A program made the translations under genes and the position numbers. Below, one piece after another: positions 1-45,277 of a stretch of DNA of 64,000 nt. The notes beneath the pieces were generated by a model that was given only the letters and a program-made list of their open reading frames with translations, searched no databases and was not told the DNA's origin. Source of the stretch: Candidatus Lloydbacteria bacterium (GTDB lineage Bacteria > Patescibacteriota > Minisyncoccia > Phycocordibacterales > UBA6899); assembly GCA_043719805.1 (NCBI GenBank), contig JAYSTI010000015.1, forward strand, positions 4,881 through 68,880, read 5' to 3'. Every line of letters begins with the position of its first letter. Position 1 is the stretch's first letter.

Positions 1-440
1 CCAATCGAGCTGCGCAAAAGATCCTTGTTTTTGTAAATAGTAAGCGGGTACCGCTCTAATAGTTCCCCGACGACCTTCGAGCATGCTTCTTCAATGTCCC
101 AATAAGAAACACCCCGACAGTATGCGCCGTTTTGCAACTCCGTTGAGCCATCAGTTATTGTGCCGTTCACGCTTGCGAGGAGTCGCAAGCCGTATAGCTT
201 TGGCTCGTCGTTCATCATGGTGTCAAAATTTGCGCTTGGGTATTGTGTGATCCCCTGCTGGAAAAGATAGGCAAACAACGTTTGCCATTTGTCGGGAATA
301 GGATAATCAAAATTTGGGAAACTCCACGCCTGTTCCCCGGCGATGATGGGTGTAATTGTTGTGCGCACGGTAAGCAGTGCGCGCATAAGCGGTGAAAGCG
401 GGCTATTAAATCTTCCCGGGGAGAGGCTGAGGTGCCGCAT
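1..440 (-). CDS. Hypothetical protein, 3'-truncated at the window edge. The N-terminus reads MRHLSLSPGRF and the frame stays open down to position 1. This ORF is not in the supplied track because it has no in-window stop.
   Basis: I translated the reverse strand by eye from 549 down to 1 and met no stop codon. The first ATG is at 440..438. The frame differs from that of the overlapping upstream gene. Confidence 0.3.
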   Translation of the reverse strand, partial: MRHLSLSPGRFNSPLSPLMRALLTVRTTITPIIAGEQAWSFPNFDYPIPDKWQTLFAYLFQQGITQYPSANFDTMMNDEPKLYGLRLLASVNGTITDGSTELQNGAYCRGVSYWDIEEACSKVVGELLERYPLTIYKNKDLLRSSI

Positions 441-549
441 CGTTTCGGAAAATAATTCCGGACTTACCCGCCTCTCAGGAATAAAATATTGACGGTCATC
501 AGTAGCCGCCTCATTTCGGATTTTTTTTACCTCAGGATTTGATGATTCT

Positions 550-2391
550 TTAGTATTTTGCATATGTGTTTATCGCAGGCAACATGCGGGTGATTCCATA
601 TAATACATGACCGGCAGCATCAATCCAAGCGTTGGGGTGCATCGGGTCATGCCGAAAGCCACCCCACATCCTCGCCTGCATGTCTTCCTGTATAAAAAAA
701 GTATTTTCCTCGTTGTATTGCATGCGTTGTAGCCAACCTTGAGTACGCGCCAATACTTCACGTGGTACGAATTCGTTACCTGCAAGTACCTCGAATATTT
801 TTCCAACACCACGCGTGTACACAAACGTTGAGTTGCTGCAATTTGGAAAAGAGCCATCGGGACGTTGGTGTGAAAGAAGCCACAGCATAACATCAGCGTG
901 AACTGTTTTGTCGACATGGAGGCTTGCGACAGCAAGCTCAGCCCATAGCGCGAGACTAGGGGAGCCATCCTTTCTTGCGCGTGTGAAGCGTTGATAGAGC
1001 TGCGCAATACGCACTTTGGAAATTGCATGCGCACGTGCGGTTGGACTTTCAGACATGATAAAACTCACAGTTTGGCATAAACTGATGGGGTCAGTTGCTG
1101 ATGGGGAATCGAGATACGGGAGCAATTTTTCTTTTATCAACACGTTCGCACGAGTGTCGCCAAGTGCGCTTGCTAGTTGCCCGGTATAAGCGAGAATGAG
1201 CATAATATTTTCCCCTGCCTTTTTCTCTAACTCCGGAAGGTGGGTCATGAGGTAGCTGAAACTTTTTTGCGCTCCAGCTACGAAGCGAGCGTTTTTGGTA
1301 TGTGCGCCAAAGTGTGCGAGTGCCAGGGCGGTAAACGCGAGTCGCACCCAGTCGACTTGTGCGCCGAGGGCACCCCGCACATTGAGAATCGGGGGTATAT
1401 TTCCGTCCTTGTCCTGTCTGAGGAGTAGCCAGTCTGCCGCAAGTATCCCCATTTTTTGTAGTATTTCTATACCCACACCCTTCGTTGTCGCGATCACCGG
1501 ACCATGCAGTGTAAGTACTGAGTGGTGGTCGGTTGACTCGATGAAGTCGTCGACTTCAAAGATATGCACTTCACTTTGAGAAATATCACCATGGTTGATT
1601 CCCGCTTTTTCCCGGCCGAGCGAAGCGATTAGTTCAGTGAGCGTCCCAAATTCGCGAATATTGAAAATTTCAGGTAAATATAATCCTGACTGTTTTCCAT
1701 TTTTTATGAGATATCCCTTCTCGACGTAGACCTCATTTCTTGCCAACTCCTCTTTCGTGAGTGGAAAGGCAAGTGGGCTAAGGATGGTAATTTCAATACG
1801 GACGCGCTCAAGCTCTTCTCGCGTCACCGGTTTAAAGCGTAGGTCCATCATGGCCTCTCTAGTGGAGGAGCGTATTGCCGCGTCAACGGTCTGCCTTGAG
1901 GTGACATGTGACCCACGCATACAGCCTCCCACCCAGAGTGCGACTCCGATATGCGCCATTGCATTTTCGTGCGCCGCCGCCGACTCCGCAGCCTCGCTAC
2001 TGCCCGGATTTTCCCAATACTCCTTCATTGCCGCACGCGCAGAAGCAAATGCATGTTTTTTTTCTTCTATTGAAAGTGGAAAACGGAGCGGTCGAGCGCC
2101 ATTGCTGCGGTCTATTTTTTCTTCCACGGAAATTAATGGAGACGCAAAAAGCGTTACAAAACCCTCGGTGGGGAGTAATGCATCGAACGAGAGGCGAAAA
2201 GTCTCAACACCCTGCGCCACCGCGCTGTGCCATTTGGGGTTTCTGGGGTTAAGAGGAAATCGAAATTGGTAGTAGGCGTTGTGAGCGTCTTGCGTGACGC
2301 ACACCACATCGTCTTCTCGTGCGATAGTGCCAATCCATCGCATTGCGTGATTGATGAGCGTGCGACGTGCGGCCCGCCTTCGAAAGTTCAT
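550..2391 (-). CDS. AMMECR1-domain protein fused to a C-terminal alpha/alpha-toroid domain of the prenyltransferase/squalene-cyclase-like QxxDGSF repeat type
   Basis: A 613-aa ORF. The N-terminal ~180 aa resemble AMMECR1 (GVETFRLSFDALLPTEGFVTLFASPL). The C-terminal half carries repeats such as LLSHQRPDGSFPN and MWGGFRHD, typical of terpenoid-cyclase/prenyltransferase folds. Confidence 0.5.
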   Translation of the reverse strand: MNFRRRAARRTLINHAMRWIGTIAREDDVVCVTQDAHNAYYQFRFPLNPRNPKWHSAVAQGVETFRLSFDALLPTEGFVTLFASPLISVEEKIDRSNGARPLRFPLSIEEKKHAFASARAAMKEYWENPGSSEAAESAAAHENAMAHIGVALWVGGCMRGSHVTSRQTVDAAIRSSTREAMMDLRFKPVTREELERVRIEITILSPLAFPLTKEELARNEVYVEKGYLIKNGKQSGLYLPEIFNIREFGTLTELIASLGREKAGINHGDISQSEVHIFEVDDFIESTDHHSVLTLHGPVIATTKGVGIEILQKMGILAADWLLLRQDKDGNIPPILNVRGALGAQVDWVRLAFTALALAHFGAHTKNARFVAGAQKSFSYLMTHLPELEKKAGENIMLILAYTGQLASALGDTRANVLIKEKLLPYLDSPSATDPISLCQTVSFIMSESPTARAHAISKVRIAQLYQRFTRARKDGSPSLALWAELAVASLHVDKTVHADVMLWLLSHQRPDGSFPNCSNSTFVYTRGVGKIFEVLAGNEFVPREVLARTQGWLQRMQYNEENTFFIQEDMQARMWGGFRHDPMHPNAWIDAAGHVLYGITRMLPAINTYAKY

Positions 2392-2392
2392 A

Positions 2393-3121
2393 TTATTTTC
2401 CTAGTGCAAACCCATAAACGATAGACTCCGTAGTCCCATCGATATCCAGCAGTTGTTCGAGCATGTCGTCTATTGTGCCTCCAACGGCACAAGACTTAAT
2501 GCCAAGCGCCGAAGCAACGAGGCTGATATTTTGTCCGATATGTCCCGCTTCGAGAAAGATATAGCGATATCCGCGTTCACCATATTTGATCATTGACCGA
2601 GCGAAAGTCGCAGAGAGAAGTAGTACGCATCCAGCGTTGCCCACCCATCCATATGTAAATAATTTCGACATATCTTCGTCGGTGAAAGTTCTTTCCCAGA
2701 GTGCAGTGAGTGAATGTGCTCTGACATCATAATGGTAGAGCCCGGAAGGAAGTCCCGGCGATGGAACGATATTGAGGAGATATGACTCAATAGGATAACG
2801 GCTGCCCCCTGAAGGTTGCGCGCGATGGCCACCTTCACTCACTATGCCGCAGGAGTATTTCAGAAGTGTCCCCAGCTCATCTTTGAGAATGGGTTTTCTG
2901 GCAAAATCACGAACTGAGTTACGCGAAGCGAGTTTTTCAAAGAGATCTGCTTTTTGTACGTGGTCAGGGAGGGGGATCTTCTTGAATCGCGGATAAGATT
3001 TATGGTGTATTGTACGCCATTCTATCGGCCAGTCGTTTGGGTCACGTGGAAAAGGAGAGACATACCCATCCCTTATCTTTGAGGCGTGGTGGAAAAGCAT
3101 AGCGAAGTTCTTAGCATCCAT
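2393..3121 (-). CDS. SagB-type dehydrogenase (nitroreductase superfamily, McbC/SagB-like)
   Basis: A 242-aa ORF with the SagB signature: RNSVRDF...GHRAQPSGGSRYPIESYLLN...GLYHYD. The FMN-nitroreductase-like C-terminal half is present. It lies 1 bp from the gene at 550..2391, suggesting an operon. Confidence 0.65.
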   Translation of the reverse strand: MDAKNFAMLFHHASKIRDGYVSPFPRDPNDWPIEWRTIHHKSYPRFKKIPLPDHVQKADLFEKLASRNSVRDFARKPILKDELGTLLKYSCGIVSEGGHRAQPSGGSRYPIESYLLNIVPSPGLPSGLYHYDVRAHSLTALWERTFTDEDMSKLFTYGWVGNAGCVLLLSATFARSMIKYGERGYRYIFLEAGHIGQNISLVASALGIKSCAVGGTIDDMLEQLLDIDGTTESIVYGFALGK

Positions 3122-3181: not shown

Positions 3182-3940
3182 ATGCAAATGTTGAAAGAAA
3201 AGATTTTTTTCGTCGCAATAACATACATTTTTCTTTTGGCGATGCTTGCCATTTCGTACGTTTGGTTTTTTCCGAAAACTATAGCAGGAGAATTATTCTT
3301 TGGTGGCTATGCACCTCTATATAATATCAAGCTGGCGAAGTTTAGTTATGAACAGTCGCTTCGCTTTGACGCTGTAAACGGCATTCCGCCGCCGTATGCA
3401 CACTATCAGCTTTCCCGCATTGCTTTTATCCAGGGCGACCTTCGCACGGCACTCAATGAGATCGACATCGAACTCGAGGTATACCCCGCCCACATGCACG
3501 CAAACTATGTTAAAGGTTTGACGCTTGCATACATGCGTCGCGACCAAGAGGCGATTGACGCATTTGCGAAGTTCATTGTTTACAAACCGCTGAGTTGGGC
3601 GGCGCGTAATGACAAGGCATGGCTCCATTTTCGCCTTGGTGATATTGACGAGGCCCTCGACACCATCATTCCTGCAGTTGTGCCGTACCCGGAGAACCCG
3701 TGGGTGCTCAACACCTACGGAGTTATGCTCATGAATAAGGGGGAATATGCAGAGGCCCAAAAACAGCTATCGCGCGGTTTGTTGGTTGTTAATCAAATGA
3801 CGGAGAAAGAATGGGGAGAGTCGTACCCAGGAAACTCTCCACAAATTTGGGAACGGGGGCTCGATGTGTTCCGCAAATCTTTGGCAGAGAACCTTGTGCT
3901 TACTAATCAGCATTTATCAACCCAGGGGGGTGGTCACTAG
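3182..3940 (+). CDS. Membrane-anchored tetratricopeptide-repeat protein
   Basis: There is an N-terminal TM helix (FFVAITYIFLLAMLAISYVWFF) followed by TPR-like helical repeats. Confidence 0.55.
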   Translation: MQMLKEKIFFVAITYIFLLAMLAISYVWFFPKTIAGELFFGGYAPLYNIKLAKFSYEQSLRFDAVNGIPPPYAHYQLSRIAFIQGDLRTALNEIDIELEVYPAHMHANYVKGLTLAYMRRDQEAIDAFAKFIVYKPLSWAARNDKAWLHFRLGDIDEALDTIIPAVVPYPENPWVLNTYGVMLMNKGEYAEAQKQLSRGLLVVNQMTEKEWGESYPGNSPQIWERGLDVFRKSLAENLVLTNQHLSTQGGGH

Positions 3941-3970
3941 TGTTTATTATTCTCCGATGCTATATAATAT

Positions 3971-4543
3971 ATGAATATGGAAAAAGGAAAAAACTTTCGT
4001 TCGCATGTTAAGAAATTAAAGTCTAGCCTATTGCCTGCCATTGGCGCGGTATCGTTTACGCTGTTGGTCGTTTTTTTGGGTAGTTTTGTGATTGCCGGAG
4101 GAGGAGCGCCCGCACTTGCTGAATTACATTTTGCGGGCCACTCAATACTTGGAAGTCGCGCGGGGTCGGTTGTTCCCGCAAGCTGCGAAAGCAATCCTCC
4201 AACAAACCATTTTGACGGAGACTGTCCATCGGTGGTAACGGTGGGCTTAAGTCCCGGTGACCCGCGCGTGAGCGCATGGATTACCGCAACTCCTGACACG
4301 CCGCGGCCAGGAGATTCGGTCACTGTTGCATGGGGGTCAACTGGTGCGACGAGCTGCATATCCAGCTGGACGCGGGCGGAGGTTGGGATAAGTGGAGCGG
4401 TGGTCCTCGGCGCGCCGAATATTTGCGAAAACGGTTACGCGTATGTTGTTTACTGTTCGAACGTGCAAGGTTTTTATAGTAAGCCTAGTGCAGACATTTA
4501 TGTCGAGTGGGCTAATCCTCCATGTTCAGGACCTCAGCGGTAG
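3971..4543 (+). CDS. Hypothetical secreted or membrane-anchored protein
   Basis: A 190-aa ORF with an N-terminal TM/signal segment and a Cys-containing Ser/Gly-rich body. A TATATAAT box lies just upstream. Confidence 0.4.
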   Translation: MNMEKGKNFRSHVKKLKSSLLPAIGAVSFTLLVVFLGSFVIAGGGAPALAELHFAGHSILGSRAGSVVPASCESNPPTNHFDGDCPSVVTVGLSPGDPRVSAWITATPDTPRPGDSVTVAWGSTGATSCISSWTRAEVGISGAVVLGAPNICENGYAYVVYCSNVQGFYSKPSADIYVEWANPPCSGPQR

Positions 4544-4552
4544 GCGCGACAG

Positions 4553-5684
4553 CATGCCCAAAAGTCATGTCTCTAGCTTCAGGCGCTTTTCTTGCCATGT
4601 AGCATGGCGCAAAGTGAAGACAAATTGTACTCAAAAATCACAATGCGTTGTTTTAGGTAGTTTTTTCTTTGCCCTTTGTGTTTCCACCTTGCTTTTTTCT
4701 AGTTTCGGTTTTTCAAAAAAGAGTAACCCTCCACATCTTTTTGTTTCGTACAACAATGCCACAGTAAACGGAGGACCGATTACTGCGATCGATCTCTCAA
4801 CGCTGGTGGCGAGTAGGCCGGACATCGACGCTTCGGTGTGTGATGGTATGGCATATCTCCCCACGCTCTCATCGGTCAGTTTTTACTGCCAAGGTTCTCG
4901 TTTGGGTCGTCAGTTTTGGACCTTTCATCTCAACGCGCTTGATGCTCGTCCTGCGTTCGGTGGATCAAGCGCGGTATTTCGACATCCACGCATGGTTGTC
5001 GATACGAGAGGTAGCGCCTTCTTTTCTGCGGGCGGCCCGCTTTCTTCACATGGGAACAATGCTCATGTTGTTATGCGGGGAGAAGACGGGTCACATGAAG
5101 TTGCAATTTCTGACGCACATCATAGTTTATATATCACGGAGCTTTTGCTTGATGAGGTGCGGGGCAAGCTGTGGGTCCTCAGTATGGGAGAGGCAGGGTA
5201 CACGCGACTCGACCGAATGGACATTGCAACACATCAGATAGACCTCTCAGTTCCGCTTCCCGTGCATTCTGCGTGGGGAATAATGAAAAATGGCGATCAG
5301 CTTGTGGTGGGCACATATCGGTCCTCTTTAGGTAAAGATGCATTTGTCTTTGATCTTGGTACGGGAAAAGAATCAGTATCGTTTGCCCTTCCGGTCGGAG
5401 GTGCAGGATATGTTGCGAAGGCGATGCTTGTAATGCCAAATGAAATCCTTATTGCAACCCAAGGTGGAGTGTTTCACCTCGACAAGGCAACCTACGGCAT
5501 AATAGGTTTTTCCACGACAAGTCCTGGAGATGCATTTACCAGGATGGTTGCTGACGATGCCTACATCTACGCAATAAACAGTTACGACAGCATTGTGCGC
5601 CTTAATGCGTCGGGCCTTGACCAAGAAGAGGTAATCCTGGCGGGGAACGGTGCTGGTGCGATGGAGATTCTCCTTGTCCCGTGA
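4553..5684 (+). CDS. Hypothetical secreted protein, possibly beta-propeller-like. The start is uncertain: the track ORF begins at 4392 and overlaps the previous gene.
   Basis: ORF 4392..5684. The internal Met at 4553 precedes a hydrophobic signal-like segment (VVLGSFFFALCVSTLLFSSFGF). Confidence 0.4.
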
Positions 5685-5740
5685 TTGTGCTTGGAGTGCA
5701 AGCGAATTTCCCAACAACCTGAAAAAGTTGTATTATTGGG

Positions 5741-5746
5741 TGTATA
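5741..5746 (+). promoter_or_regulatory. TATAAT -10-like box 12 bp upstream of the proposed start of the InlB-repeat protein gene
   Basis: The sequence reads ggtgTATAATaaaaaagctATG. The short leader is consistent with a leaderless or short-leader transcript. Confidence 0.3.
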
Positions 5747-5757
5747 ATAAAAAAGCT

Positions 5758-8412
5758 ATGCAAAGAAAATACCTACTATTTTTTTCGATGATTGTGATCT
5801 TGTTTTTTGGAGGCAAAGAAACTGTCTTCGCGGGGAATACTATTGATATTGAGCGCGGCACAGTGTCCTATATTGCCTGGACAGTTACACTTGCAGGTGC
5901 ATGTGCGCCTTCGACAACATATCCAGACCCTAACACTCCATCTGTTTCACTTCGCGATGCGTGGATGAGTGGAGTAGGTGGGGCATCAAGTGGGGCAATT
6001 TTCCTTCCTCCGGCTAACAACGTCGGCACGTGGACGTTTACCTGTACGCATATCGCAACAGCACTGGATACGGCAACTCCTTCGGATACTTCGACGCTTA
6101 ATGTGCGCGATTGTCCTTTTTATGGAAAAACTTGGGATGGTTCGACGTGTACGACCGCCCGCACCGTCACCTTCGACGCCAATGGCGGGTCGGGTTCAAT
6201 GGCCAATCAGGTTGCGAGCGTCTCAACCGCACTCACTGCGAACTCCTACACACGCGCCGGGTACACATTCAATGGCTGGAACACTGTTGCAGGTGCCGGG
6301 GGAACAGCATATGCAGACAGCGCCGCATACTCTTTTGCTGCAAATGCCACCCTCTATGCACAGTGGACAGCGCTCCCCGTATACACTCTCACCTTTGACG
6401 GCTGGGGCAGTACCGGTGGTGCAACCGCACTCATGAATATTCCGCAAGGCAATACTGTTCCACTCAACCTAAACGGCTACACCCGCACCGGATTTACCTT
6501 CAACGGGTGGAGCACAATTGCAGGTGGTGGCGGGACCTTATACGCCGACGGTGCGAACTACACCATGGGTGGAGCAAACGCCACTCTTTATGCGAGGTGG
6601 GTGGCAGTTCCCGTATACACCCTCACCTTTAACGGCAATGGTGCAGACGGCGGCGCAACCCCACTCATGAACATTGCACAGGGCGCAACGACACCTCTCA
6701 ACTTAAACGGCTTCACCCGTACCGGATTCAATTTCAACGGATGGAACACCTTGGCCGGAGGCGGAGGAACCGCATACGGCAACGGTGCGAACTACACCAT
6801 GGGTGGAGCAAACGCCACCCTCTATGCACAGTGGACTGCTGTTCCAGCCCCCGTCGTCACCGTCACCGGCGCAACAGTAAATGGAGGCACCGGAAACGGC
6901 AGCCGTTCCGCATACTATGGAGAAGCGGCAACTGTGAACTGGGCTGCAACCAATGGCGCCACTTCATGTTCCGTATACAGAAATGCAGTACTCGTCGGCC
7001 CATACGCATATCCCGGTACCTCGTCATACGTCACACCTGCACTTACAGCAGATGACAACTACCGCGTCGACTGTACGAACGGAACACTGGGAACAGGAAA
7101 CACAATTACCTTCATTATACCTCCGGTCCCGACAATCGTTGATGCTACGTGTCCTGTCCCTGGCAACAGCATGACCCTTAACTGGACACTTCCCGGCGTA
7201 TACACTGAAACGTATGTCCGTGCATACCGGACTCCTCCCGCATTCATCGATTGGACATCTGCCTGTTCACCCGCACAAGTCGCACCGAACGGCACCTGTT
7301 CCGTTGTGGTCGGCACCACGTTCACCATGGCAGCTACTCCGGGTCAGCAATACTATTGGTATATTCATACCAAGCACGCGAATACGAATTACAGTAATTC
7401 GGTGGGAGCAGGTGCGCCGTTTACGTGTACGCCCACTGCGCCAACAGTAACGGCCACACTAAATGGAGCCATTGCGCCGGTCACCATTCCCTCCGAAGGT
7501 TCCTTCACGCTCGCCATGTCCTCGACCGATGCAACTGCCTGTACGTGGGAACGTATCTCGACAAATAATCTCTTAGTTCCCTCATTTGCCCCGGCGCCGA
7601 TCCCCGTGCCTCTTGGTGGGCCATTCCAGCTCACTCCGCTTCTTCTGTCCGGTTGGCAGGGACCGGTAACGGTAACTCATAAGTTTGTTTGCTCGAACTT
7701 ATCCGGAAGTGACTCAAAATCGGTAGTGGTCACCGTGAACACCCCCGTTCCGCAGATAACAACAAACCCAGTTAATAATCTTGCTTTTGGTGATGTTCCA
7801 CTCAACAACATCCGCACAATGACATTCACCATGCAGAATACCGGACAGATTGGTTCAACACTCGCAGGTACGGTTACTACCGGAAGCGGACGCTTTGTTT
7901 GTACCGCTGGATGTGTGTACAATCTCGCCCAAGGCGCACCGGCGCAAACGGTCACCATGGAATTCACTCCAACCGCAAATGGAACTCTCAGTTTCCCCGC
8001 ACTCTTTAATGGAGTCGCAGAAAATACCCCGATTAATCCACTCGTGCTTTCCGGAAAGGGTATCCCCGCAGTCATCATGTTGCCTCCGTCAATCAATTTC
8101 GGTAGCGTCCCCATCATCCGCACCAAGGACATCACCTTCACGATTGTGAATATCGGTGCAGGCAACCTCGGACCTTCGACATTCGGCTTCGCTCCCCTTG
8201 GCGGGCCATACACCTGTGTTTCAGGGGCTACTTGCGCAGCCGGTGGCATCAACCTCAATTCCGGAGTTGTGAACACGGTCACCATTCGCTTCACACCAAC
8301 CGCAGCTATCGTGTACCCCCTATACAACGGAACACTGACCGGGCAACCGCTCTATATGGTCCCCATCAATGGTACGGGAGCGCAGCCGGTATTTGATGTG
8401 AAGGAGAGATAG
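5758..8412 (+). CDS. Large secreted adhesin-like protein. It carries three Listeria/Bacteroides (InlB B-repeat / Flg_new) repeats followed by choice-of-anchor-D / ASH-like Ig-fold domains.
   Basis: The signal peptide is MQRKYLLFFSMIVILFFGG. Three repeats match the Flg_new pattern (V/LTFDxNGG...GYTFNGWNT...ATLYAQW). The C-terminal units resemble FGxVPLNxxxTMTFTxxNTG. Confidence 0.75.
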   Translation: MQRKYLLFFSMIVILFFGGKETVFAGNTIDIERGTVSYIAWTVTLAGACAPSTTYPDPNTPSVSLRDAWMSGVGGASSGAIFLPPANNVGTWTFTCTHIATALDTATPSDTSTLNVRDCPFYGKTWDGSTCTTARTVTFDANGGSGSMANQVASVSTALTANSYTRAGYTFNGWNTVAGAGGTAYADSAAYSFAANATLYAQWTALPVYTLTFDGWGSTGGATALMNIPQGNTVPLNLNGYTRTGFTFNGWSTIAGGGGTLYADGANYTMGGANATLYARWVAVPVYTLTFNGNGADGGATPLMNIAQGATTPLNLNGFTRTGFNFNGWNTLAGGGGTAYGNGANYTMGGANATLYAQWTAVPAPVVTVTGATVNGGTGNGSRSAYYGEAATVNWAATNGATSCSVYRNAVLVGPYAYPGTSSYVTPALTADDNYRVDCTNGTLGTGNTITFIIPPVPTIVDATCPVPGNSMTLNWTLPGVYTETYVRAYRTPPAFIDWTSACSPAQVAPNGTCSVVVGTTFTMAATPGQQYYWYIHTKHANTNYSNSVGAGAPFTCTPTAPTVTATLNGAIAPVTIPSEGSFTLAMSSTDATACTWERISTNNLLVPSFAPAPIPVPLGGPFQLTPLLLSGWQGPVTVTHKFVCSNLSGSDSKSVVVTVNTPVPQITTNPVNNLAFGDVPLNNIRTMTFTMQNTGQIGSTLAGTVTTGSGRFVCTAGCVYNLAQGAPAQTVTMEFTPTANGTLSFPALFNGVAENTPINPLVLSGKGIPAVIMLPPSINFGSVPIIRTKDITFTIVNIGAGNLGPSTFGFAPLGGPYTCVSGATCAAGGINLNSGVVNTVTIRFTPTAAIVYPLYNGTLTGQPLYMVPINGTGAQPVFDVKER

Positions 8413-12698: not shown

Positions 12699-13691
12699 TA
12701 GACTTGCTCCCCAATAACTCCCACTCGTCAAAAAACACACCCCACGGGTGTTTTTATGTTCGGTAACTCAAGTGATAGTTCCACAACCCCGCAGCGAGTT
12801 GAATGAAGAGGTCATCCAATTTCCCCAGTCGATTGCGAAAGGTCTCGGATACTGCACGAAAGCGTTTCATGCCACCGATTGCATGCTCCATGCGGACACG
12901 AATGCTTGAAATGAGTTTGTTCTCCGCTTTTTGTGTGGGTGTCAGTGGATATTTTTTTTGTTCCCTTTGTCGGTATACACACATTGGGGTGTTGTTTCTG
13001 TATTCCCTTAAATCCCGTGTCGACCCATATGCCCACCGAGGGTGGAATATGTGCGATTAACGATGCTTTGTCTGCCAGCCGTTTGTCATGCCGTCTTCCT
13101 GCTTTGGTGGGAGACACATAGAGAATGCGTTTCTTTTCATCGGTCATAATGATGTTCTTGCGTGTGGTGGTCTTCTTCTTTCCCGAGTATTGCTTGCGTT
13201 GATTCTTGGGTTTCTTGGGACGCTGTATTCGTCGTTCGGTTCCATCAAGAAATACATCCTTCACTTCCGGAAAGAGACGAAGAAACTCGTCGATGTCACC
13301 GATCCTCCGCTTGGGGAGCGTGTGCTTCACCTCCATACTGCGATTGAGCACTTGCGCAAAGAAGTGTACCGCCTCACAAGTTCTTCCTCGTGATTTCCCT
13401 GACAAGAAACCCAGGATATCAAAGGTGGGGTATGTTTTGAAATAGAAAAGGATGAAGAAGAGCTTTGCTTCGGCGGTGGAGAGATGCCCCTTTTGTCCTC
13501 CACCAGGGTTTCTTTTCCGATCTGGTTTCTTCATTTGAACGCTTTTCAGTGAGCATTCAAATACAGGAAGCAAATCGGTAAATTCTTGGTAACTAAGGCC
13601 GGTGAGTGCCTTAATGGCGCGATGGTCATGGGCAAGTTTGGTAATGTTCATTCATCTATTTTCTAATTTTTCTTATTGGGGAGCAAGTCTA
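12699..13691 (-). mobile_element. IS5-family (DDE_Tnp_4 / ISL2-like) insertion sequence of about 993 bp with 19-bp perfect terminal inverted repeats
   Basis: The left TIR is TAGACTTGCTCCCCAATAA at 12699..12717. Its reverse complement is at 13673..13691. A single transposase ORF lies inside. A possible TA target duplication flanks the element. Confidence 0.75.
12812..13651 (-). CDS. IS5-family DDE transposase
   Basis: A 279-aa ORF with the motif DGTERRIQRPKKPKNQRKQYSGKKKTTTRKN...GRRHDKRLAD, the DDE_Tnp_4 / IS5 ISL2-group signature. Confidence 0.8.
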   Translation of the reverse strand: MNITKLAHDHRAIKALTGLSYQEFTDLLPVFECSLKSVQMKKPDRKRNPGGGQKGHLSTAEAKLFFILFYFKTYPTFDILGFLSGKSRGRTCEAVHFFAQVLNRSMEVKHTLPKRRIGDIDEFLRLFPEVKDVFLDGTERRIQRPKKPKNQRKQYSGKKKTTTRKNIIMTDEKKRILYVSPTKAGRRHDKRLADKASLIAHIPPSVGIWVDTGFKGIQKQHPNVCIPTKGTKKISTDTHTKSGEQTHFKHSCPHGACNRWHETLSCSIRDLSQSTGEIG

Positions 13692-13705
13692 TTGTTTGCG
13701 TAAAC

Positions 13706-14275
13706 TCATTCTTGCACTCCGCATTCAAAAAATAATTTTTTAAGGTACTCAGAAAATGCACGCATTTCTTCCTGATATTCTTCAAGGCGAGTTTGTCGCG
13801 TTTCTTCATCTTCAATGGCTTGAATGTCAGACCCGATGCTTTCGAGTCGACTTAGTTTGTGCCCATATCCACTTGTGCTAAGCATCTGGTGGATAGGTAC
13901 TTTGCGTTCGCCATAAAAGTCATCGAGGATGGCAATGAGTCGTCGCCGTTCCTCAAGATTTTTTCGCATGATTTCCTCGAGTATTGCCTCCTTTTCTTCA
14001 TCACTGGTCGCGTCTTTCGCTTTGCGATAAAGTGCCGGCGCATCCCTTGTCTCAATGTCGACCCATGGTGCCCGAGTTCCGTGGTCAAGGTGGCCTTCGC
14101 AGGAACCGGTAGAATGGAATCCGCTTACAATGAGTCCGGCAAGGGCTTCTTTGATGCCCTCATCCACACCCCTTCCCAATTTGTCTGCAAAGGATTCTAT
14201 ATCTTCCCTCACCTTGTCCCAGACAGCCATCTTCTCAGGATTGAAGCCACCTTGATCTTCCGTATGTGTTTCCAT
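13706..14275 (-). CDS. Hypothetical acidic cytoplasmic protein
   Basis: A 189-aa ORF with no recognisable domain. Its density and orientation fit a real gene. Confidence 0.45.
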   Translation of the reverse strand: METHTEDQGGFNPEKMAVWDKVREDIESFADKLGRGVDEGIKEALAGLIVSGFHSTGSCEGHLDHGTRAPWVDIETRDAPALYRKAKDATSDEEKEAILEEIMRKNLEERRRLIAILDDFYGERKVPIHQMLSTSGYGHKLSRLESIGSDIQAIEDEETRQTRLEEYQEEMRAFSEYLKKLFFECGVQE

Positions 14276-42479: not shown

Positions 42480-43922
42480 GTGAAAACGAGAGACGATGCG
42501 ATCGATCCCGTGCACTATTTTGGGAAGCTGCTCGGCCTTGACTCGGCCGGCATGACGGCGCTCGTCAAACGCGCACTTTTTGGTGCGGAAGACGGCGAGC
42601 TCTTTCTGCAGCGTTCGGAAAGCGAAAGTGTTTCGCTCAACGATGGCCGGGTCCAGTCGCCGTCACGAAGTGTGGACCAAGGATTTGGTCTGCGCCGCGT
42701 GAACGGGGAGTCGGTGCTTTACGCACACGGCAATACGATCTCGACTCGGGCTATCGTTCGCGCGGGCAAAGAGCTCCGCGAAATCGCAACGGCGAAGCAG
42801 TCGTACGTGATGCGGGAGGTGCTTCCGCAACCGATGGCTCGTTATGCCGGAACGCTCACCCCACTGTCGCTTGCGGCTCGGGTAAAGGTCCTGCGTGCGA
42901 TCGACCGTTACGCGCGAAAAGACAAAGTGGTGACCAACGTCAGTGCTTTCATTGCGAGTGGACTCACCTATGTCCTCATCGTGCGTGCGGATGGAACTGT
43001 TGCGAGCGATGTTCGCCCGATGACAAAACTGTTTGTCTCGGTCCAGTGCGCCCTCGGTGAGAAGCGTGAGAGCGGAGATGGAAGTATCGCCGGACGATAC
43101 GATTATTCGCGCCTCATCGCGCCGAATGTGTGGATGCCGGAAGTTGATCTTGCGATACACAACGCAAAGGAAACGCTGCGTGCGGGACCATGTCCGTCGG
43201 GCATCATGCCTGTCGTCTTGGGTCCGGGTTGGGCCGGAGTATTGCTTCATGAAGCTATCGGGCACGGACTGGAAGCTGACTGTGTGTGGCGGAAGACAAC
43301 CGTCTTCGCGGACCTCGTCGGAAAACGCGTTGCAAGCGAACTTGTGACGGTTGTCGACGATGGCACGTTGCAAGACGAACGTGGCTCACTCACCATCGAT
43401 GATGAGGGGACACCGACCGAGCGCACCGTGCTTATCAAAGACGGTATTTTGGTCGGCTTCATGCACGACAGACAGAGTGCGCGTTTGCTCAATATGCGTG
43501 CGACCGGCAGCGGTCGTCGCGAATCGTACGAACATCGCACGCAGGTGCGTATGCGCAACACACTCATGGAGAGTGGCGTGACTCCACCCGAAGACATCAT
43601 CGCCGCAACAAAGCACGGTTTGTATATGCCTTCGTTCAGCGGCGGACAAGTTGACCCGGTAACGGGGCAATTCGTGTTCGGCTGTGAGCTTGCGTACAAG
43701 ATTGAAGACGGCAAACTGACTACGCCGGTCGTTGGTGCAACGCTTATCGGCAATTGCACTACGGTGCTCACGTTCGTTGACCTCGTCGGAAATGACAGTA
43801 AGTTGGGCGGCGCGGGAACGTGCGGCAAGGGAGGGCAAAGTGTGCCTGTTGGCATCGGCCAACCGACACTGCGGCTTTCCGGCGGAGTGACCGTCGGCGG
43901 AACTGAAACAGCAGCGGAATAA
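42480..43922 (+). CDS. tldD: TldD metalloprotease (TldD/PmbA family)
   Basis: The metal-binding motif HEAIGHGLE is present. The ORF is 480 aa with a GTG start. Confidence 0.8.
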   Translation: MKTRDDAIDPVHYFGKLLGLDSAGMTALVKRALFGAEDGELFLQRSESESVSLNDGRVQSPSRSVDQGFGLRRVNGESVLYAHGNTISTRAIVRAGKELREIATAKQSYVMREVLPQPMARYAGTLTPLSLAARVKVLRAIDRYARKDKVVTNVSAFIASGLTYVLIVRADGTVASDVRPMTKLFVSVQCALGEKRESGDGSIAGRYDYSRLIAPNVWMPEVDLAIHNAKETLRAGPCPSGIMPVVLGPGWAGVLLHEAIGHGLEADCVWRKTTVFADLVGKRVASELVTVVDDGTLQDERGSLTIDDEGTPTERTVLIKDGILVGFMHDRQSARLLNMRATGSGRRESYEHRTQVRMRNTLMESGVTPPEDIIAATKHGLYMPSFSGGQVDPVTGQFVFGCELAYKIEDGKLTTPVVGATLIGNCTTVLTFVDLVGNDSKLGGAGTCGKGGQSVPVGIGQPTLRLSGGVTVGGTETAAE

Positions 43923-43933
43923 AGGAGACGACC

Positions 43934-45277
43934 ATGAATCAAAAAGAAATGCTGCGTGTCGGCAGGCAACTGCTGCGTCACGCGAAGTCCGCCGGCGCGA
44001 CTGATGCCGTTGTGTCACTCGACACGTCGATAGAGCGTGGCGTCACTGTTCGTGACGGAGTGCAAGAGGATGTCACGTTTTCGAGCAGTGCCGGTTTCAC
44101 TGTAACGGCGATTGTCGGGGACAAGCGCGGACATGCGCAAAGCTCCTCATTCGCGAGCGAGGACCTTGCTCGTACCGCAAAAGAGGCGGTACTGTCTGCG
44201 CATCTCGTAAGTGCAAACCCGCACCAGCGGCTTGCGCGACCTGACGAATGGCCGTGTGCGATGGAGGAGCTGCCCGCCAAAATGGCGCTCCTCGATTGCT
44301 TGGACCGCAGTCCGGAGCCGACATTGAAAGAACTCGTTGGACAGGCGATCGTACTTGATCGCATTGCGCGGAAGTTCCCGGGAATTTCCCGCAGCGAAGG
44401 GACCAGTTTTGGTTTCCAGTCTGATGTTTCGGTACAACTTTTGTCGAACGGTTTCGCAATCGTCTCTCCGTCGACACAGTATTCAAAGAGCACGAGTGTT
44501 ATTGCGGAAAAAGCCGGTGAGATGAAATCCGGTTCGCATTGGCACGTGGCGGCTCATCGTGCAGACCTGATGGAAGATGAGGAGTGTGCCTACCGTGCAG
44601 GAGACTATGCGGTGCGACAGCTCGGTGCGCATTCGATCAAAACGGAAGCGATGCCGGTCATCTTTGATAAGCGGGTTTCTCCGCGACTGCTTGAGGCGCT
44701 CTTTGCCGCCATCAGCGGTGAGTGCGTATATCAGAAAGAGACCTTCCTACTCGACCATCTCGGTTCACACATCTTTCGTGATGATGTGCACATTGTCGAG
44801 CGGCCGCATATGCCGCGCCGACTTCAGTCAGAGCTCTATGACGACGACTGCGTCAAGACCTCGCCGTGGACCTTGGTCGACGAAGGGTTGCTCAAGATGT
44901 GGGCAACATCCATCGAATCGGCGTCGAAGCTCGGCACGAGCGGCTCGACGGGACATGCATCGGGTGCACTTAATTTGCTCCTGTGTCCTTCGATGAGTTC
45001 GTTGAACACAATGATTCGGAAGATTGATCGCGGGTTTCTTGTTACCGATATCATGGGCGACGGAACGAATGTTGCGACCGGAGCATATTCGGTCGGAGCG
45101 GAAGGTTTCCTCATCGAGCGCGGCGAGATTGTCTGTGCAGTGAACAAGGTGACCATTGCAGGGAACTTGCTCAAAATGTTCCGGCACATGATTCCCGCTG
45201 ATGATTGTTCCGATAACACTTATGGTGCGAATGCCCCGAGCTGCCTCATCGACGAGATGATGGTCGCAGGGGAATAG
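43934..45277 (+). CDS. pmbA: PmbA/TldE protease (TldD/PmbA family partner)
   Basis: A 447-aa ORF adjacent to tldD. It has the family-typical Gly-rich C-terminal region (DIMGDGTNVATGAYSVGAEGFLIERGE). Confidence 0.75.
   Translation: MNQKEMLRVGRQLLRHAKSAGATDAVVSLDTSIERGVTVRDGVQEDVTFSSSAGFTVTAIVGDKRGHAQSSSFASEDLARTAKEAVLSAHLVSANPHQRLARPDEWPCAMEELPAKMALLDCLDRSPEPTLKELVGQAIVLDRIARKFPGISRSEGTSFGFQSDVSVQLLSNGFAIVSPSTQYSKSTSVIAEKAGEMKSGSHWHVAAHRADLMEDEECAYRAGDYAVRQLGAHSIKTEAMPVIFDKRVSPRLLEALFAAISGECVYQKETFLLDHLGSHIFRDDVHIVERPHMPRRLQSELYDDDCVKTSPWTLVDEGLLKMWATSIESASKLGTSGSTGHASGALNLLLCPSMSSLNTMIRKIDRGFLVTDIMGDGTNVATGAYSVGAEGFLIERGEIVCAVNKVTIAGNLLKMFRHMIPADDCSDNTYGANAPSCLIDEMMVAGE

What the first reader, a model, noticed from the sequence alone, without database searches (positions are those of the whole stretch)
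1..3121. Orphan SagB-type dehydrogenase in an operon with an AMMECR1-toroid fusion protein, and a third overlapping gene
SagB/McbC-type dehydrogenases normally partner with YcaO cyclodehydratases in thiazole/oxazole-modified peptide (TOMM) biosynthesis. Here the SagB-like gene at 2393..3121 is followed 1 bp later by a 613-aa protein. That protein joins an AMMECR1 domain to an alpha/alpha-toroid (QxxDGSF-repeat, terpenoid-cyclase or LanC-like) domain. A further ORF in another frame runs from 440 to the window edge. No YcaO gene or obvious precursor peptide is visible in this window. However, a TldD/PmbA pair, which processes microcin B17 in E. coli, is encoded at 42.5-45.3 kb. The combination is not a described system. 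It could represent a non-canonical peptide- or protein-modification pathway.
Basis: inference. Interest (0 to 1): 0.55.

Follow-up and report, generated by a model that had tools for sequence, protein, structure and literature searches.

The report
AMMECR1–toroid partner in a YcaO peptide cluster
The SagB gene is not orphan, because the gene cut by the window edge is its YcaO cyclodehydratase and a Cys-rich precursor gene follows; this is a thiazole/oxazole peptide cluster whose unusual part is a conserved, undescribed AMMECR1–toroid protein that appears to stand in for the usual YcaO helper.

Summary
The three ORFs are real. They are SagB (2393..3121, minus strand), a 613-aa AMMECR1 + alpha/alpha-toroid protein (550..2391, minus) and a third ORF.

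- **Third ORF.** It starts at 563, not 440. It overlaps the 613-aa gene by 14 nt and is the N-terminus of a 529-aa SagD-type YcaO that ends in PHPFP.
- **Precursor.** On the longer source contig, a 79-aa ORF lies 126 nt downstream of ycaO. It has a TM helix, an A-x-A-D-V motif and the tail SGCCESSSSCGS. So "orphan SagB, no YcaO, no precursor" is wrong: this is a TOMM/LAP-type cluster, a kind already reported in CPR bacteria.
- **What is unusual.**
  - No E1-like or RRE partner is present.
  - The AMMECR1–toroid protein belongs to a family of about 260 clusters at 50% identity.
  - It sits next to or overlaps this YcaO clade in 18 of 21 loci with enough flank.
  - In three lineages it is fused to YcaO in one polypeptide.
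  - Its AMMECR1 "catalytic" Cys is Ser in 135 of 146 members.
- **Recurrent neighbours.** Membrane-anchored precursors and two TM-TPR proteins recur. SagB presence tracks the Cys content of the precursor tail.
- **TldD/PmbA.** The pair is real but 39 kb away, and it is adjacent to the system in only 1 of 44 unique loci.
- **Best reading.** The fusion protein is a new YcaO partner or co-enzyme. That role is inferred, not shown.

The parts
2393..3121 (-). SagB-type FMN dehydrogenase (242 aa), first gene of the minus-strand operon
   Evidence: TIGR03605 at 130.2 bits (cutoff 78.4) and PF00881 at E 5.5e-21. The K-Y motif (IKYGERGYRY) and R..PS.G.R.P.E.Y are invariant in 14 cluster-associated homologues.
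550..2391 (-). 613-aa three-domain protein: N-terminal alpha+beta domain, AMMECR1 domain and (alpha/alpha)6 toroid. It starts 1 nt after the SagB stop.
   Evidence: ORF and junction. AF2 model with pLDDT 74.6. Family of 260 representatives at E<=1e-30.
2092..2391 (-). N-terminal domain (residues 1-100; one helix plus five strands), family-specific. It is missing in two of the three natural fusions to YcaO.
   Evidence: Secondary structure from the AF2 model. P0176 and P0211 begin at the AMMECR1 domain.
1507..2073 (-). AMMECR1 domain (residues ~107-295), with R159-G160-S161 in place of the canonical R-G-C motif and D183-x-R185-F186 retained
   Evidence: PF01871 E 1.4e-14. PDB 1zq7 and 1vaj by profile and by Foldseek. 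Position 161 is Ser in 135 and Cys in 10 of 146 aligned representatives. Motif definition from PMC2034487.
553..1479 (-). (alpha/alpha)6 toroid domain (residues ~305-613) with conserved K531, E534, R580-H581-D582, D591 and H595
   Evidence: Foldseek finds MstE and squalene-hopene cyclase at E 2e-5 with target TM ~0.5, then GH88/GH105, LanCL, AprG and the alpha2-macroglobulin TED domain. Weak SQHop_cyclase_C and TED_complement hits in 4 of 7 members. Residue conservation.
1..563 (-). First 187 codons of a 529-aa SagD-type YcaO cyclodehydratase, overlapping the previous gene by 14 nt. The rest lies beyond the window edge.
   Evidence: Exact-match contig L001: PF02624 E 2.4e-51; TIGR03604 at 215.5 bits (cutoff 219.25); C-terminal ...NPLPHPFP. 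AF2 pLDDT 91.9; Foldseek best matches are MusD, LynD and TruD.
3182..3940 (+). Divergently transcribed 252-aa protein with an N-terminal TM helix and TPR repeats; a recurrent member of the neighbourhood
   Evidence: TPR Pfam hits. Homologues are found in most of the well-covered loci, including L003, L005, L012, L015, L016, L018, L019, L028, L037 and L047-L052.

Best explanation
The left end of the window is a thiazole/oxazole-modified peptide (TOMM/LAP-type) gene cluster, probably from a CPR/Patescibacteria-like bacterium. The operon reads sagB, then the AMMECR1-toroid gene, then ycaO. Just outside the window come a 79-aa precursor and a TM-TPR protein.

Proposed course of events:
1. The precursor carries an N-terminal membrane helix, a conserved juxtamembrane motif ending in A-x-A|D-V-(A)P, and a short acidic Cys/Ser tail (SGCCESSSSCGS).
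2. The SagD-type YcaO uses ATP to cyclodehydrate Cys (and possibly Ser) in that tail to azolines.
3. SagB (FMN) oxidises the azolines to azoles.
4. The AMMECR1-toroid protein works in physical complex with the YcaO. It takes the place of the missing E1-like/RRE partner, either presenting the substrate or activating the YcaO. It may also contribute chemistry of its own through its conserved Ser/Cys (AMMECR1 cleft) and the Lys/Glu/Arg-His-Asp/Asp/His cluster in the toroid.
5. The two membrane-anchored TPR proteins act as scaffolds at the membrane. Cleavage after the invariant Ala then releases the modified tail.

Shown: domain identities, gene order, synteny and natural gene fusion. Inferred: the complex, the role of the fusion protein, the chemistry and the processing.
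For: Domain identities:
- The SagB and YcaO assignments, with catalytic signatures and the C-terminal PxPxP motif, rest.
- The YcaO model is closest to the azoline-forming heterocyclases MusD, LynD and TruD.

Precursor family:
- It was found in about 25 unique loci. Each member has a TM helix, an invariant Ala at -1, Asp at +1 in nearly all, and a hypervariable Gly/acidic/Cys tail that in several loci resembles McbA.
- SagB is present in 13 of 13 loci whose tail has at least 2 Cys. It is absent where the tail has 0-1 Cys (L003, L026). In L049 it is absent and a FAD oxidase is encoded in the locus.

Link between the fusion protein and YcaO:
- 18 of 21 unique fusion-bearing loci with at least 2 kb visible downstream carry this YcaO clade. 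Most are within 30 nt or overlap by 8-14 nt.
- Three separate 50%-identity clusters (P0170, P0176, P0211) encode AMMECR1-toroid-YcaO as one 1043-1131-aa polypeptide. One was verified in its genomic context, with nitroreductase, precursor and TPR genes around it.

No conventional partner:
- No ThiF/E1-like, Ocin-ThiF, TfuA or RRE family hits any gene of these loci.
- Nothing E1- or RRE-like appears in the fold searches.
Against: - When loci were sampled YcaO-first, 3 of 7 (L047, L051, L052) lack the fusion gene within the visible 10-12 kb yet keep the precursor and both TPR proteins. L047 and L052 carry SagB next to their YcaO; in L051 it lies ~2.2 kb downstream, beyond the precursor and p365 genes. 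The fusion is therefore not obligatory in cis.
- Some precursors beside fusion + YcaO have no Cys or Thr at all (L006, L026, L032: ADVPEGGEGGEGGEGGGPEGDS). Azoline formation cannot be the whole story.
- The very strong conservation of polar residues in the toroid, and the Ser/Cys swap in the AMMECR1 cleft, look more like an enzyme than a passive adaptor.
- The positive-inside rule places the precursor tail outside the cell, away from the cytoplasmic enzymes.
- No biochemical data exist for any member.
Confidence: 0.55

Rival explanations
1. The AMMECR1-toroid protein is a tailoring enzyme, not a YcaO partner. It would perform a separate modification or cleavage on the same precursor, for example at the conserved A|D-V-P site or on the Cys-Asp/Glu positions of the tail. 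The YcaO would recognise the substrate itself through its ~150-aa N-terminal extension.
For: - K531, E534, D591 and H595 are present in every representative aligned at those positions (145-147 of 150). R527 and R580-H581-D582 are nearly invariant.
- The AMMECR1 cleft residue alternates between Ser and Cys, as nucleophiles do.
- The fusion co-occurs with Cys-free precursors.
- The fusion is absent from 3 of 7 YcaO-first loci.
- The YcaO has a conserved family-specific N-terminal extension.
Against: - Overlapping reading frames with ycaO are the rule, and there are three independent covalent fusions to YcaO. This is the pattern seen for the E1-like partner in cyanobactin heterocyclases.
- The N-terminal extension of the YcaO shows no RRE-like winged helix in the model or in fold hits.
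Confidence: 0.3
2. The system does not make a diffusible natural product. It decorates a small membrane-anchored protein that stays on the cell, for instance as a metal-binding or host-contact appendage of an episymbiotic CPR cell. The TM-TPR proteins would be its assembly factors.
For: - All ~25 small ORFs keep a full-length TM helix.
- Two TM-anchored TPR proteins are the most constant neighbours.
- No ABC exporter, immunity gene or dedicated protease recurs in the loci.
- The tails are acidic and rich in Gly and Cys.
Against: - The invariant small residue at -1 (with A/V/T at -3) before Asp looks like a cleavage site that would release the tail.
- The hypervariable tails resemble antibiotic cores such as McbA.
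- This reading concerns the fate of the product and is compatible with either role for the fusion protein.
Confidence: 0.25
3. One reading: an orphan SagB-like nitroreductase acts without a YcaO, together with the AMMECR1-toroid protein and the distant TldD/PmbA pair, in a new YcaO-independent pathway.
For: - The window alone shows no recognisable YcaO domain.
- TldD/PmbA is present in the window and adjacent to the fusion gene in one locus, L028.
Against: - The truncated ORF is the start of a 529-aa YcaO on an exact-match contig.
- YcaO accompanies the fusion in 18 of 21 informative loci.
- SagB is present in only part of the loci (13 of 40 unique fusion-bearing loci, many with short flanks).
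- TldD/PmbA is adjacent in 1 of 44 unique loci, which is compatible with chance.
Confidence: 0.03

Closest known systems
Microcin B17 synthetase McbBCD with McbA, matured by TldD/TldE (E. coli)
   Same: - A YcaO cyclodehydratase (McbD is a fold hit at E 3e-13) works with a SagB/McbC-type FMN dehydrogenase that has the Lys-Tyr motif.
- Several precursors of this family have Gly/Ser/Cys-rich cores very like McbA (L052, L050, L053).
- A TldD/PmbA pair exists in the same genome window.
   Different: - No McbB (E1-like, zinc-binding) homologue is present; an AMMECR1-toroid protein sits in that position.
- The precursor has a membrane helix in place of a soluble leader.
- There are no McbEFG-type export or immunity genes.
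- TldD/PmbA is not linked to the cluster, except in L028.
Fused cyanobactin-type heterocyclases (LynD, TruD, PatD, MusD): E1-like/RRE domains fused to YcaO
   Same: - These are the best sequence-profile and structural matches of the YcaO.
- The principle is the same: the YcaO partner is encoded adjacently or fused N-terminally to the YcaO domain. That arrangement recurs here as AMMECR1-toroid-YcaO polypeptides.
   Different: The N-terminal partner here is not E1-like and has no RRE. It is an AMMECR1 (RAGNYA-fold) domain plus an (alpha/alpha)6 toroid, with no detectable sequence or fold relation to E1.
LAP clusters of Candidate Phyla Radiation genomes (Sharrar et al. 2020, PMC7298704)
   Same: - YcaO + nitroreductase + small precursor clusters in Parcubacteria and Microgenomates. 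That paper reports 110 clusters in 93 further CPR genomes, 89 of them with a nitroreductase next to the YcaO.
- The present YcaO clade carries Woesebacteria, Parcubacteria and Patescibacteria names.
   Different: That report does not mention an AMMECR1 or toroid protein, the membrane-anchored precursor family or the TM-TPR genes. Its example cluster has a peptidase instead.
AMMECR1 / AmmeMemoRadiSam system protein A (PF01871, TIGR04335)
   Same: The two-RAGNYA-domain fold and the D-x-R-aromatic motif are kept.
   Different: - The score is below the TIGR04335 cutoff (56 bits against 99).
- The 'absolutely conserved' Cys of RGChG is Ser in most members.
- No Memo-like dioxygenase or radical SAM neighbour is present.
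- The domain is fused to a toroid and coupled to YcaO.
Class II terpene cyclase / squalene-hopene cyclase and LanC-like (alpha/alpha)6 toroids
   Same: The overall toroid fold and two Q-x-x-D-G-x-F/I-P repeats.
   Different: - Similarity is at fold level only (TM ~0.5, 14-16% identity).
- There is no DxDD motif.
- No Cys is conserved in the domain, so the LanC Cys-Cys-His zinc site is absent.
- There is no thioester CGEQ motif.
- A distinct conserved set is present instead: R527, K531, E534, R580-H581-D582, D591 and H595.

Membership tests
TOMM/LAP biosynthetic cluster (azol(in)e-forming YcaO + SagB dehydrogenase) | YcaO domain with ATP/Mg-binding motifs | tested here: met
   PF02624 E 2.4e-51. 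G-E-x-x-E-R, N-G-x-x-G and E-x-x-x-R-D are conserved across the clade.
TOMM/LAP biosynthetic cluster (azol(in)e-forming YcaO + SagB dehydrogenase) | Membership of the SagD-type cyclodehydratase subfamily (TIGR03604) | tested here: inconclusive
   215.5 bits over the whole model (positions 7-377 of 377), against a curated cutoff of 219.25.
TOMM/LAP biosynthetic cluster (azol(in)e-forming YcaO + SagB dehydrogenase) | C-terminal PxPxP motif of azoline-forming YcaOs (established knowledge from the YcaO literature) | tested here: met
   The protein ends ...NPLPHPFP. P525 and H526 are invariant in 58 homologues, and P527, F528 and P529 are conserved in at least 90%.
TOMM/LAP biosynthetic cluster (azol(in)e-forming YcaO + SagB dehydrogenase) | SagB/McbC-type FMN dehydrogenase with the Lys-Tyr motif | tested here: met
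   TIGR03605 at 130.2 bits, above the 78.4 cutoff. K-Y is invariant in 14 homologues.
TOMM/LAP biosynthetic cluster (azol(in)e-forming YcaO + SagB dehydrogenase) | E1-like / Ocin-ThiF-like partner carrying an RRE | tested here: not met
   No such Pfam or NCBIfam hit in any gene of the loci. No E1 or RRE fold match for the fusion protein or the YcaO N-terminus.
TOMM/LAP biosynthetic cluster (azol(in)e-forming YcaO + SagB dehydrogenase) | Adjacent small precursor with a Cys/Ser/Thr-rich core | tested here: met
   79-aa ORF at L001:7534-7773 ending SGCCESSSSCGS. Its family is found in about 25 loci, but a few members have Cys-free tails.
TOMM/LAP biosynthetic cluster (azol(in)e-forming YcaO + SagB dehydrogenase) | Azole/azoline heterocycles in the product | not testable with these tools
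   Needs mass spectrometry of the modified peptide.
AMMECR1 (PF01871) / AmmeMemoRadiSam protein A (TIGR04335) | AMMECR1 two-domain fold | tested here: met
   PF01871 at 54.4 bits, above the 25 cutoff. Foldseek 1zq7 E 1.5e-8 with target TM 0.76.
AMMECR1 (PF01871) / AmmeMemoRadiSam protein A (TIGR04335) | R-G-C-h-G motif with an 'absolutely conserved' Cys (PMC2034487) | tested here: not met
   R159-G160-S161 in the window protein. Ser in 135, Cys in 10 and Leu in 1 of 146 aligned representatives.
AMMECR1 (PF01871) / AmmeMemoRadiSam protein A (TIGR04335) | D-x-R-aromatic motif | tested here: met
   D183-x-R185-F186. D and R are each present in 141 of 147 aligned representatives.
AMMECR1 (PF01871) / AmmeMemoRadiSam protein A (TIGR04335) | Neighbourhood with a Memo-like dioxygenase and a radical SAM enzyme; score above the TIGR04335 cutoff | tested here: not met
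   56 bits against a cutoff of 99. No such neighbours in any locus.
LanC-like lanthionine cyclase | Cys-Cys-His zinc site and a LANC_like profile match | tested here: not met
   No LANC_like hit in 7 members at E<=5. No invariant Cys in the toroid. LanCL1/2 appear only as weak fold hits (E 1.5e-3, TM 0.39).
Class II terpene cyclase / prenyltransferase toroid | Profile match above threshold and a DxDD (cyclase) or Asp/Cys/His zinc (prenyltransferase) site | tested here: not met
   SQHop_cyclase_C is found only below threshold in 4 of 7 members (best E 3.8e-4). There is no conserved DxDD or Cys. Fold similarity only.

The most novel reading that the evidence does not exclude
The AMMECR1-toroid protein would be a third kind of YcaO partner, after the E1-like/RRE proteins and TfuA. 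It would bind membrane-anchored precursors and activate the YcaO, or extend its chemistry. In the Cys-free members this could include a non-azoline reaction such as ATP-dependent cleavage or backbone modification at the conserved A|D-V-P site. This would be the first experimentally tractable functional context for the AMMECR1 domain, whose biochemical role has been unknown since its discovery. It would point to action on peptides rather than RNA.
Probability: 0.4. Interest if true: 0.78.

Novelty: new variant of a known kind. Interest (0 to 1): 0.6.

Why it matters
- **YcaO enzymology.** YcaO enzymes depend on partner proteins that decide what they bind and which chemistry they perform. Each new partner class, such as the E1-like/RRE proteins and TfuA, has opened a new area of RiPP enzymology. 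Here a sizeable, unannotated protein family (about 260 clusters at 50% identity) is tied to one YcaO clade by synteny, overlapping reading frames and natural fusion. It lacks every known partner signature.
- **AMMECR1.** It is a universally distributed domain named after a human disease locus, and no biochemical function is known for it. A defined candidate peptide substrate and partner enzyme would make its function directly testable in E. coli.
- **CPR biology.** The system is widespread in CPR/Patescibacteria. These organisms have tiny genomes and almost no known secondary metabolism, so a conserved six-gene investment suggests a role in their episymbiotic lifestyle.
- **For the scan itself.** An apparently 'orphan' tailoring gene at a window edge should be checked against the truncated neighbouring ORF first.

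Tried and rejected
1. **Truncated ORF alone.** Searching its 146-187 residues against Pfam and NCBIfam gave nothing. It was resolved only by fetching the exact-match contig.
2. **LanC, terpene cyclase, prenyltransferase or thioester (TED) identity for the toroid.** Only fold-level or sub-threshold matches appeared, and the defining catalytic residues are absent.
3. **An RRE or E1-like domain hidden in the YcaO N-terminal extension or in the fusion's N-terminal domain.**
   - The secondary-structure order does not fit beta3-alpha3.
   - Fold hits show only YcaO structures plus a weak dsRBD-like match.
   - The N-terminal domain is missing in two of the three natural fusions.
4. **TldD/PmbA as a cluster component.** The pair is adjacent in one locus only, L028.
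5. **p365 as an enzyme.** It has only TM + TPR (LapB-like) similarity.
6. **RNA elements.** There is no Rfam family or tRNA anywhere in the window.
7. **Organism name.** Taxonomy is inferred from homologue labels only.
8. **Literature.** No paper links AMMECR1 with YcaO or RiPPs.
9. **Myxococcota loci.** No small-ORF homologue was found there. A convergent lipoprotein-like ORF with repeated [IV][IV]EAP motifs is there instead; it was not pursued.

Full report
**1. Observation**

All genes of the finding lie on the minus strand.

- The ORF at 2393..3121 (242 aa) matches TIGR03605 'SagB family peptide dehydrogenase' at 130.2 bits (cutoff 78.4) and PF00881 at E 5.5e-21.
- Its TAA stop ends at 2393. 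One base later, the ATG at 2391 opens a 613-aa ORF running to 550.
- Residues ~107-295 of that ORF are an AMMECR1 domain. The evidence is PF01871 at E 1.4e-14, a profile hit to PDB 1zq7 at E 3e-15, and Foldseek at 1.5e-8 with TM 0.76.
- In the AlphaFold model (pLDDT 74.6) residues ~305-613 form an (alpha/alpha)6 toroid. A small alpha+beta domain (residues 1-100) precedes the AMMECR1 domain.
- The TldD/PmbA pair at 42480..45277 is real.

**2. The third ORF is the YcaO**

- The ORF that runs off the window edge starts at ATG 563, not 440, and overlaps the 613-aa gene by 14 nt.
- Its 146-187 visible residues match no profile.
- An exact look-up of the 613-aa protein returned an 11.2-kb contig, L001, that extends the window leftwards.
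- On L001 the ORF is a 529-aa YcaO:
  - PF02624 scores E 2.4e-51.
  - TIGR03604 'SagD family' scores 215.5 bits over the full model, just under the 219.25 cutoff.
  - The C-terminus is ...NPLPHPFP, the PxPxP tail typical of azoline-forming YcaOs.
- A 58-sequence alignment gave a model with pLDDT 91.9. Its best structural matches are MusD, LynD and TruD, followed by the archaeal YcaOs, E. coli YcaO and McbD.
- A 79-aa ORF lies 126 nt downstream of ycaO and is preceded by a TGTATAAT box. Its sequence is MKHTLKKPTLNTLLNFTAVVLLGLIAILLGYITKQSSKDAALLGTTLDPLLIVNVALADVAPTDYSESGCCESSSSCGS.

The SagB is therefore not orphan. The locus is a TOMM/LAP-type cluster.

**3. Conservation**

*Size and spread of the fusion family*

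- Word-indexed search found only 7 clusters.
- An exhaustive profile search of 1.84 billion representatives found 260 with E<=1e-30.
- Loci were collected from three sources:
  - GTDB species representatives gave 13 loci. They come from Saccharibacteria, Paceibacterota, Taylorbacteria, Moranbacteria and the Parcubacteria group, and also from Bdellovibrionales and Myxococcales/Polyangiaceae.
  - JGI/ENA metagenomes gave 28 loci.
  - Contig look-ups supplied the rest.

*Link between the fusion gene and YcaO*

- I built HMMs from the first loci and mapped every locus with them.
- There are 40 unique fusion-bearing loci, and 21 of them show at least 2 kb downstream of the fusion gene.
- Of those 21, 18 carry this YcaO clade. 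Usually it is the next gene, with a gap of 30 nt or less or an overlap of 8-14 nt.
- The three exceptions (L010, L015, L018) all belong to a subtype that also encodes a phosphoribosyltransferase-like + beta-propeller protein. Each has one flank cut by the contig end. In complete loci of that subtype (L003, L012, L037) the YcaO lies 2-6 kb away.

*Other recurrent members*

- A small precursor-like ORF.
- A ~365-aa protein with a TM helix and LapB-like TPR repeats, called 'p365' here.
- The 252-aa TM-TPR protein, encoded divergently in the window at 3182..3940.
- SagB, in part of the loci.
- A SAM-methyltransferase-like gene in one subgroup.

**4. The precursor family**

- About 25 unique small ORFs share the same layout:
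  - a basic N-terminus and a full-length TM helix;
  - a short Ser/Lys-rich stretch;
  - a motif with Ala at -1 in every member, A/V/T at -3, Asp at +1 in nearly all (for example ALA|DVAP, AHA|DVPV, ASA|DAPG) and usually Pro at +3 or +4;
  - a hypervariable tail rich in Gly, Asp/Glu, Ser and Cys.
- Several tails resemble McbA closely, for example L052 GGGSSGSGGGSVGGGDGSGCGSCGAGCGDGCGSS....
- SagB is present in all 13 loci whose tail has two or more Cys.
- SagB is absent in well-covered loci with one Cys (L003) or none (L026). L049, with three Cys, lacks SagB but encodes a FAD_binding_4 oxidase in the locus.

A conserved leader with a variable core, plus oxidase presence tracking Cys content, is what a RiPP substrate would show.

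**5. What the AMMECR1-toroid protein is**

*AMMECR1 domain*

- Balaji and Aravind defined an R-G-C-h-G motif with an 'absolutely conserved' Cys, and a D-x-R-aromatic motif, as the predicted active site (PMC2034487).
- In this family D-x-R-F is kept, but the Cys is Ser in the window protein.
- Among 146 aligned family representatives the residue is Ser in 135 and Cys in 10.
- A Ser/Cys interchange suggests a retained nucleophile rather than a dead site.

*Toroid*

- It matches MstE and squalene-hopene cyclase only at fold level (E 2e-5, TM ~0.5, about 15% identity).
- Weaker fold matches are GH88/GH105, LanCL1/2, AprG and the alpha2-macroglobulin TED domain.
- Pfam gives only sub-threshold SQHop_cyclase_C and TED_complement hits.
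- It has no conserved Cys (so no LanC zinc site), no DxDD and no CGEQ.
- Instead K531, E534, D591 and H595 are present in every representative aligned at those positions. R527, Q558-Y559 and R580-H581-D582 are nearly invariant.

The domain is a distinct toroid family of the terpenoid-cyclase-like superfold.

**6. Evidence that it works with the YcaO**

- The two genes are adjacent, with overlapping reading frames, in most loci (section 3).
- Three representatives from different 50%-identity clusters are single polypeptides containing AMMECR1, toroid and YcaO domains, and they end in PHLFP. They are P0170 (1131 aa), P0176 (1043 aa) and P0211 (1055 aa).
- P0176 was checked in its genomic context (L053). 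The gene order is a second YcaO, then nitroreductase, the triple fusion, a 90-aa precursor (…NIAHADSGTSDEGGFQVEGCGNSGGCGCSGGSEGDGEGC), a p365-like protein and a TPR protein.
- This is the arrangement known for the E1-like partner in LynD, TruD and PatD.
- No gene in any locus matches ThiF/E1, Ocin-ThiF, TfuA or an RRE family.
- Neither model shows such a fold.

From established knowledge, azoline-forming YcaOs need a partner for leader binding and activation. The most economical reading is that the AMMECR1-toroid protein fills that role.

**7. Evidence against, and open points**

- I sampled the YcaO clade without regard to the fusion. That clade has 92 clusters, with Woesebacteria, Parcubacteria and Patescibacteria labels.
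  - Four of seven loci have the fusion (L048, L049, L050, L053).
  - Three do not have it within the visible 10-12 kb (L047, L051, L052), although they keep the precursor, p365, TPR and SagB.
  - The fusion may be encoded elsewhere in those genomes, or it may be dispensable.
- One subgroup (L006, L026, L032) pairs fusion + YcaO + methyltransferase with tails that lack Cys and Thr (ADVPEGGEGGEGGEGGGPEGDS). There the YcaO must either act on the terminal Ser or do something other than azoline formation.
- The strong conservation of polar residues argues that the fusion protein is an enzyme in its own right.
- The positive-inside rule places the precursor tail outside the cell, while the enzymes have no signal peptides.
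- The A-x-A|D motif resembles a signal-peptidase-I site, but it lies 12-25 residues beyond the helix.
- TldD/PmbA is adjacent to the fusion gene only in L028. At roughly one pair per small genome this is compatible with chance. The McbA-like cores keep TldD/PmbA processing as a testable idea, not a finding.

**8. Comparison with what is known**

- LAP clusters (YcaO + nitroreductase + precursor) have been reported as widespread in CPR genomes (PMC7298704). The kind of system is therefore known.
- The following are not described in NCBIfam or Pfam or in the searchable literature:
  - the AMMECR1-toroid family and its coupling to YcaO;
  - the membrane-anchored precursor family with the A|D-V-P motif;
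  - the TM-TPR companions.
- I file the locus as a TOMM/LAP-type cluster by mechanism. One defining feature, the E1-like/RRE partner, was tested and not met, and the azole product itself is not testable with these tools.
- I do not file the 613-aa protein as a member of the AmmeMemoRadiSam system, LanC, or the terpene cyclases.

**9. Verdict**

The ORFs and domains are right, but 'orphan' and 'no YcaO/precursor' are artefacts of the window edge.
- The locus is a new variant of a known kind.
- It has a specific, testable novelty: a new candidate YcaO partner or co-enzyme built from an AMMECR1 domain and a toroid.
- Confidence in the partner model is moderate (0.55). The main rival, an independent tailoring enzyme, stands at 0.3.
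- The organism is inferred to be CPR/Patescibacteria-like from homologue labels only.

Noticed in passing
window 51200-64000: Under table 11 there is no ORF of 200 aa or more on either strand across ~13 kb, only scattered ORFs of 90-197 aa. GC (0.48-0.55) is like the rest of the window. The whole window has no tRNA and no Rfam family. Coding density looks abnormally low. Possible causes are a degraded or pseudogenised region, a frameshift-rich assembly, or something non-coding.
   Followed up: partly
L028:299-3279 (metagenome contig Ga0209542_10013970): A TldD/PmbA pair lies directly upstream of the AMMECR1-toroid gene (3654-5507) in this one locus. It is the only case among the 44 unique loci examined. 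This weakly echoes microcin B17 maturation.
   Followed up: partly
L003:3665-5311, L012:4527-6164, L037:8239-9885, L047:5262-6914, L052:7567-9228 and others: A ~550-aa cytoplasmic protein with a phosphoribosyltransferase-like N-terminus and a PQQ-like beta-propeller defines a sub-architecture of the system. In that subtype the genes are more scattered. L047 has two YcaOs and no AMMECR1-toroid gene in view.
   Followed up: partly
L006:12646-13495, L016:12555-13505, L026:11275-12276, L032:3081-4250: A SAM-methyltransferase-like gene follows the precursor in a subgroup whose tails end in ...EGDS. Most of those tails lack Cys, which suggests a different or additional modification.
   Followed up: no
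L011:11397-11666, L013:5130-5627, L017:2731-3258 (minus strand): The Myxococcota loci lack the small TM precursor. Instead they have a convergent lipoprotein-like ORF (lipobox ...VASCGG) with repeated [IV][IV]EAP[YA] motifs. It may be a lineage-specific substrate or an unrelated neighbour.
   Followed up: no
L007:12787-13047 and 13075-14211: The Saccharibacteria precursor has an extremely Cys-rich core (VCCPCRFVVEGCDCCSAEGCAEGVEGCACVGCESCDSACVA). It is followed by a 378-aa TM protein whose N-terminal part (…AISSIMDILGYWGDKRF…) resembles a C39-like peptidase motif without the Cys.
   Followed up: no
window 3971-4543 (+) and 5650-8412 (+): Downstream of the TM-TPR gene lie secreted or surface proteins. 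One is a 190-aa protein that shares a VPASCES motif with the protein in the same position in L003/L004. Another is a 920-aa protein with repeated TxTFxxNGGxG…GYTFxGWNT units. Similar secreted proteins follow the TPR gene in many loci.
   Followed up: partly
L001:7490-7536 (about 1.1 kb left of the window edge): An extended -10-like box (TGTGTATAAT) lies ~30 nt upstream of the precursor ATG, with no clear Shine-Dalgarno sequence. This suggests the precursor has its own promoter and a short leader.
   Followed up: no
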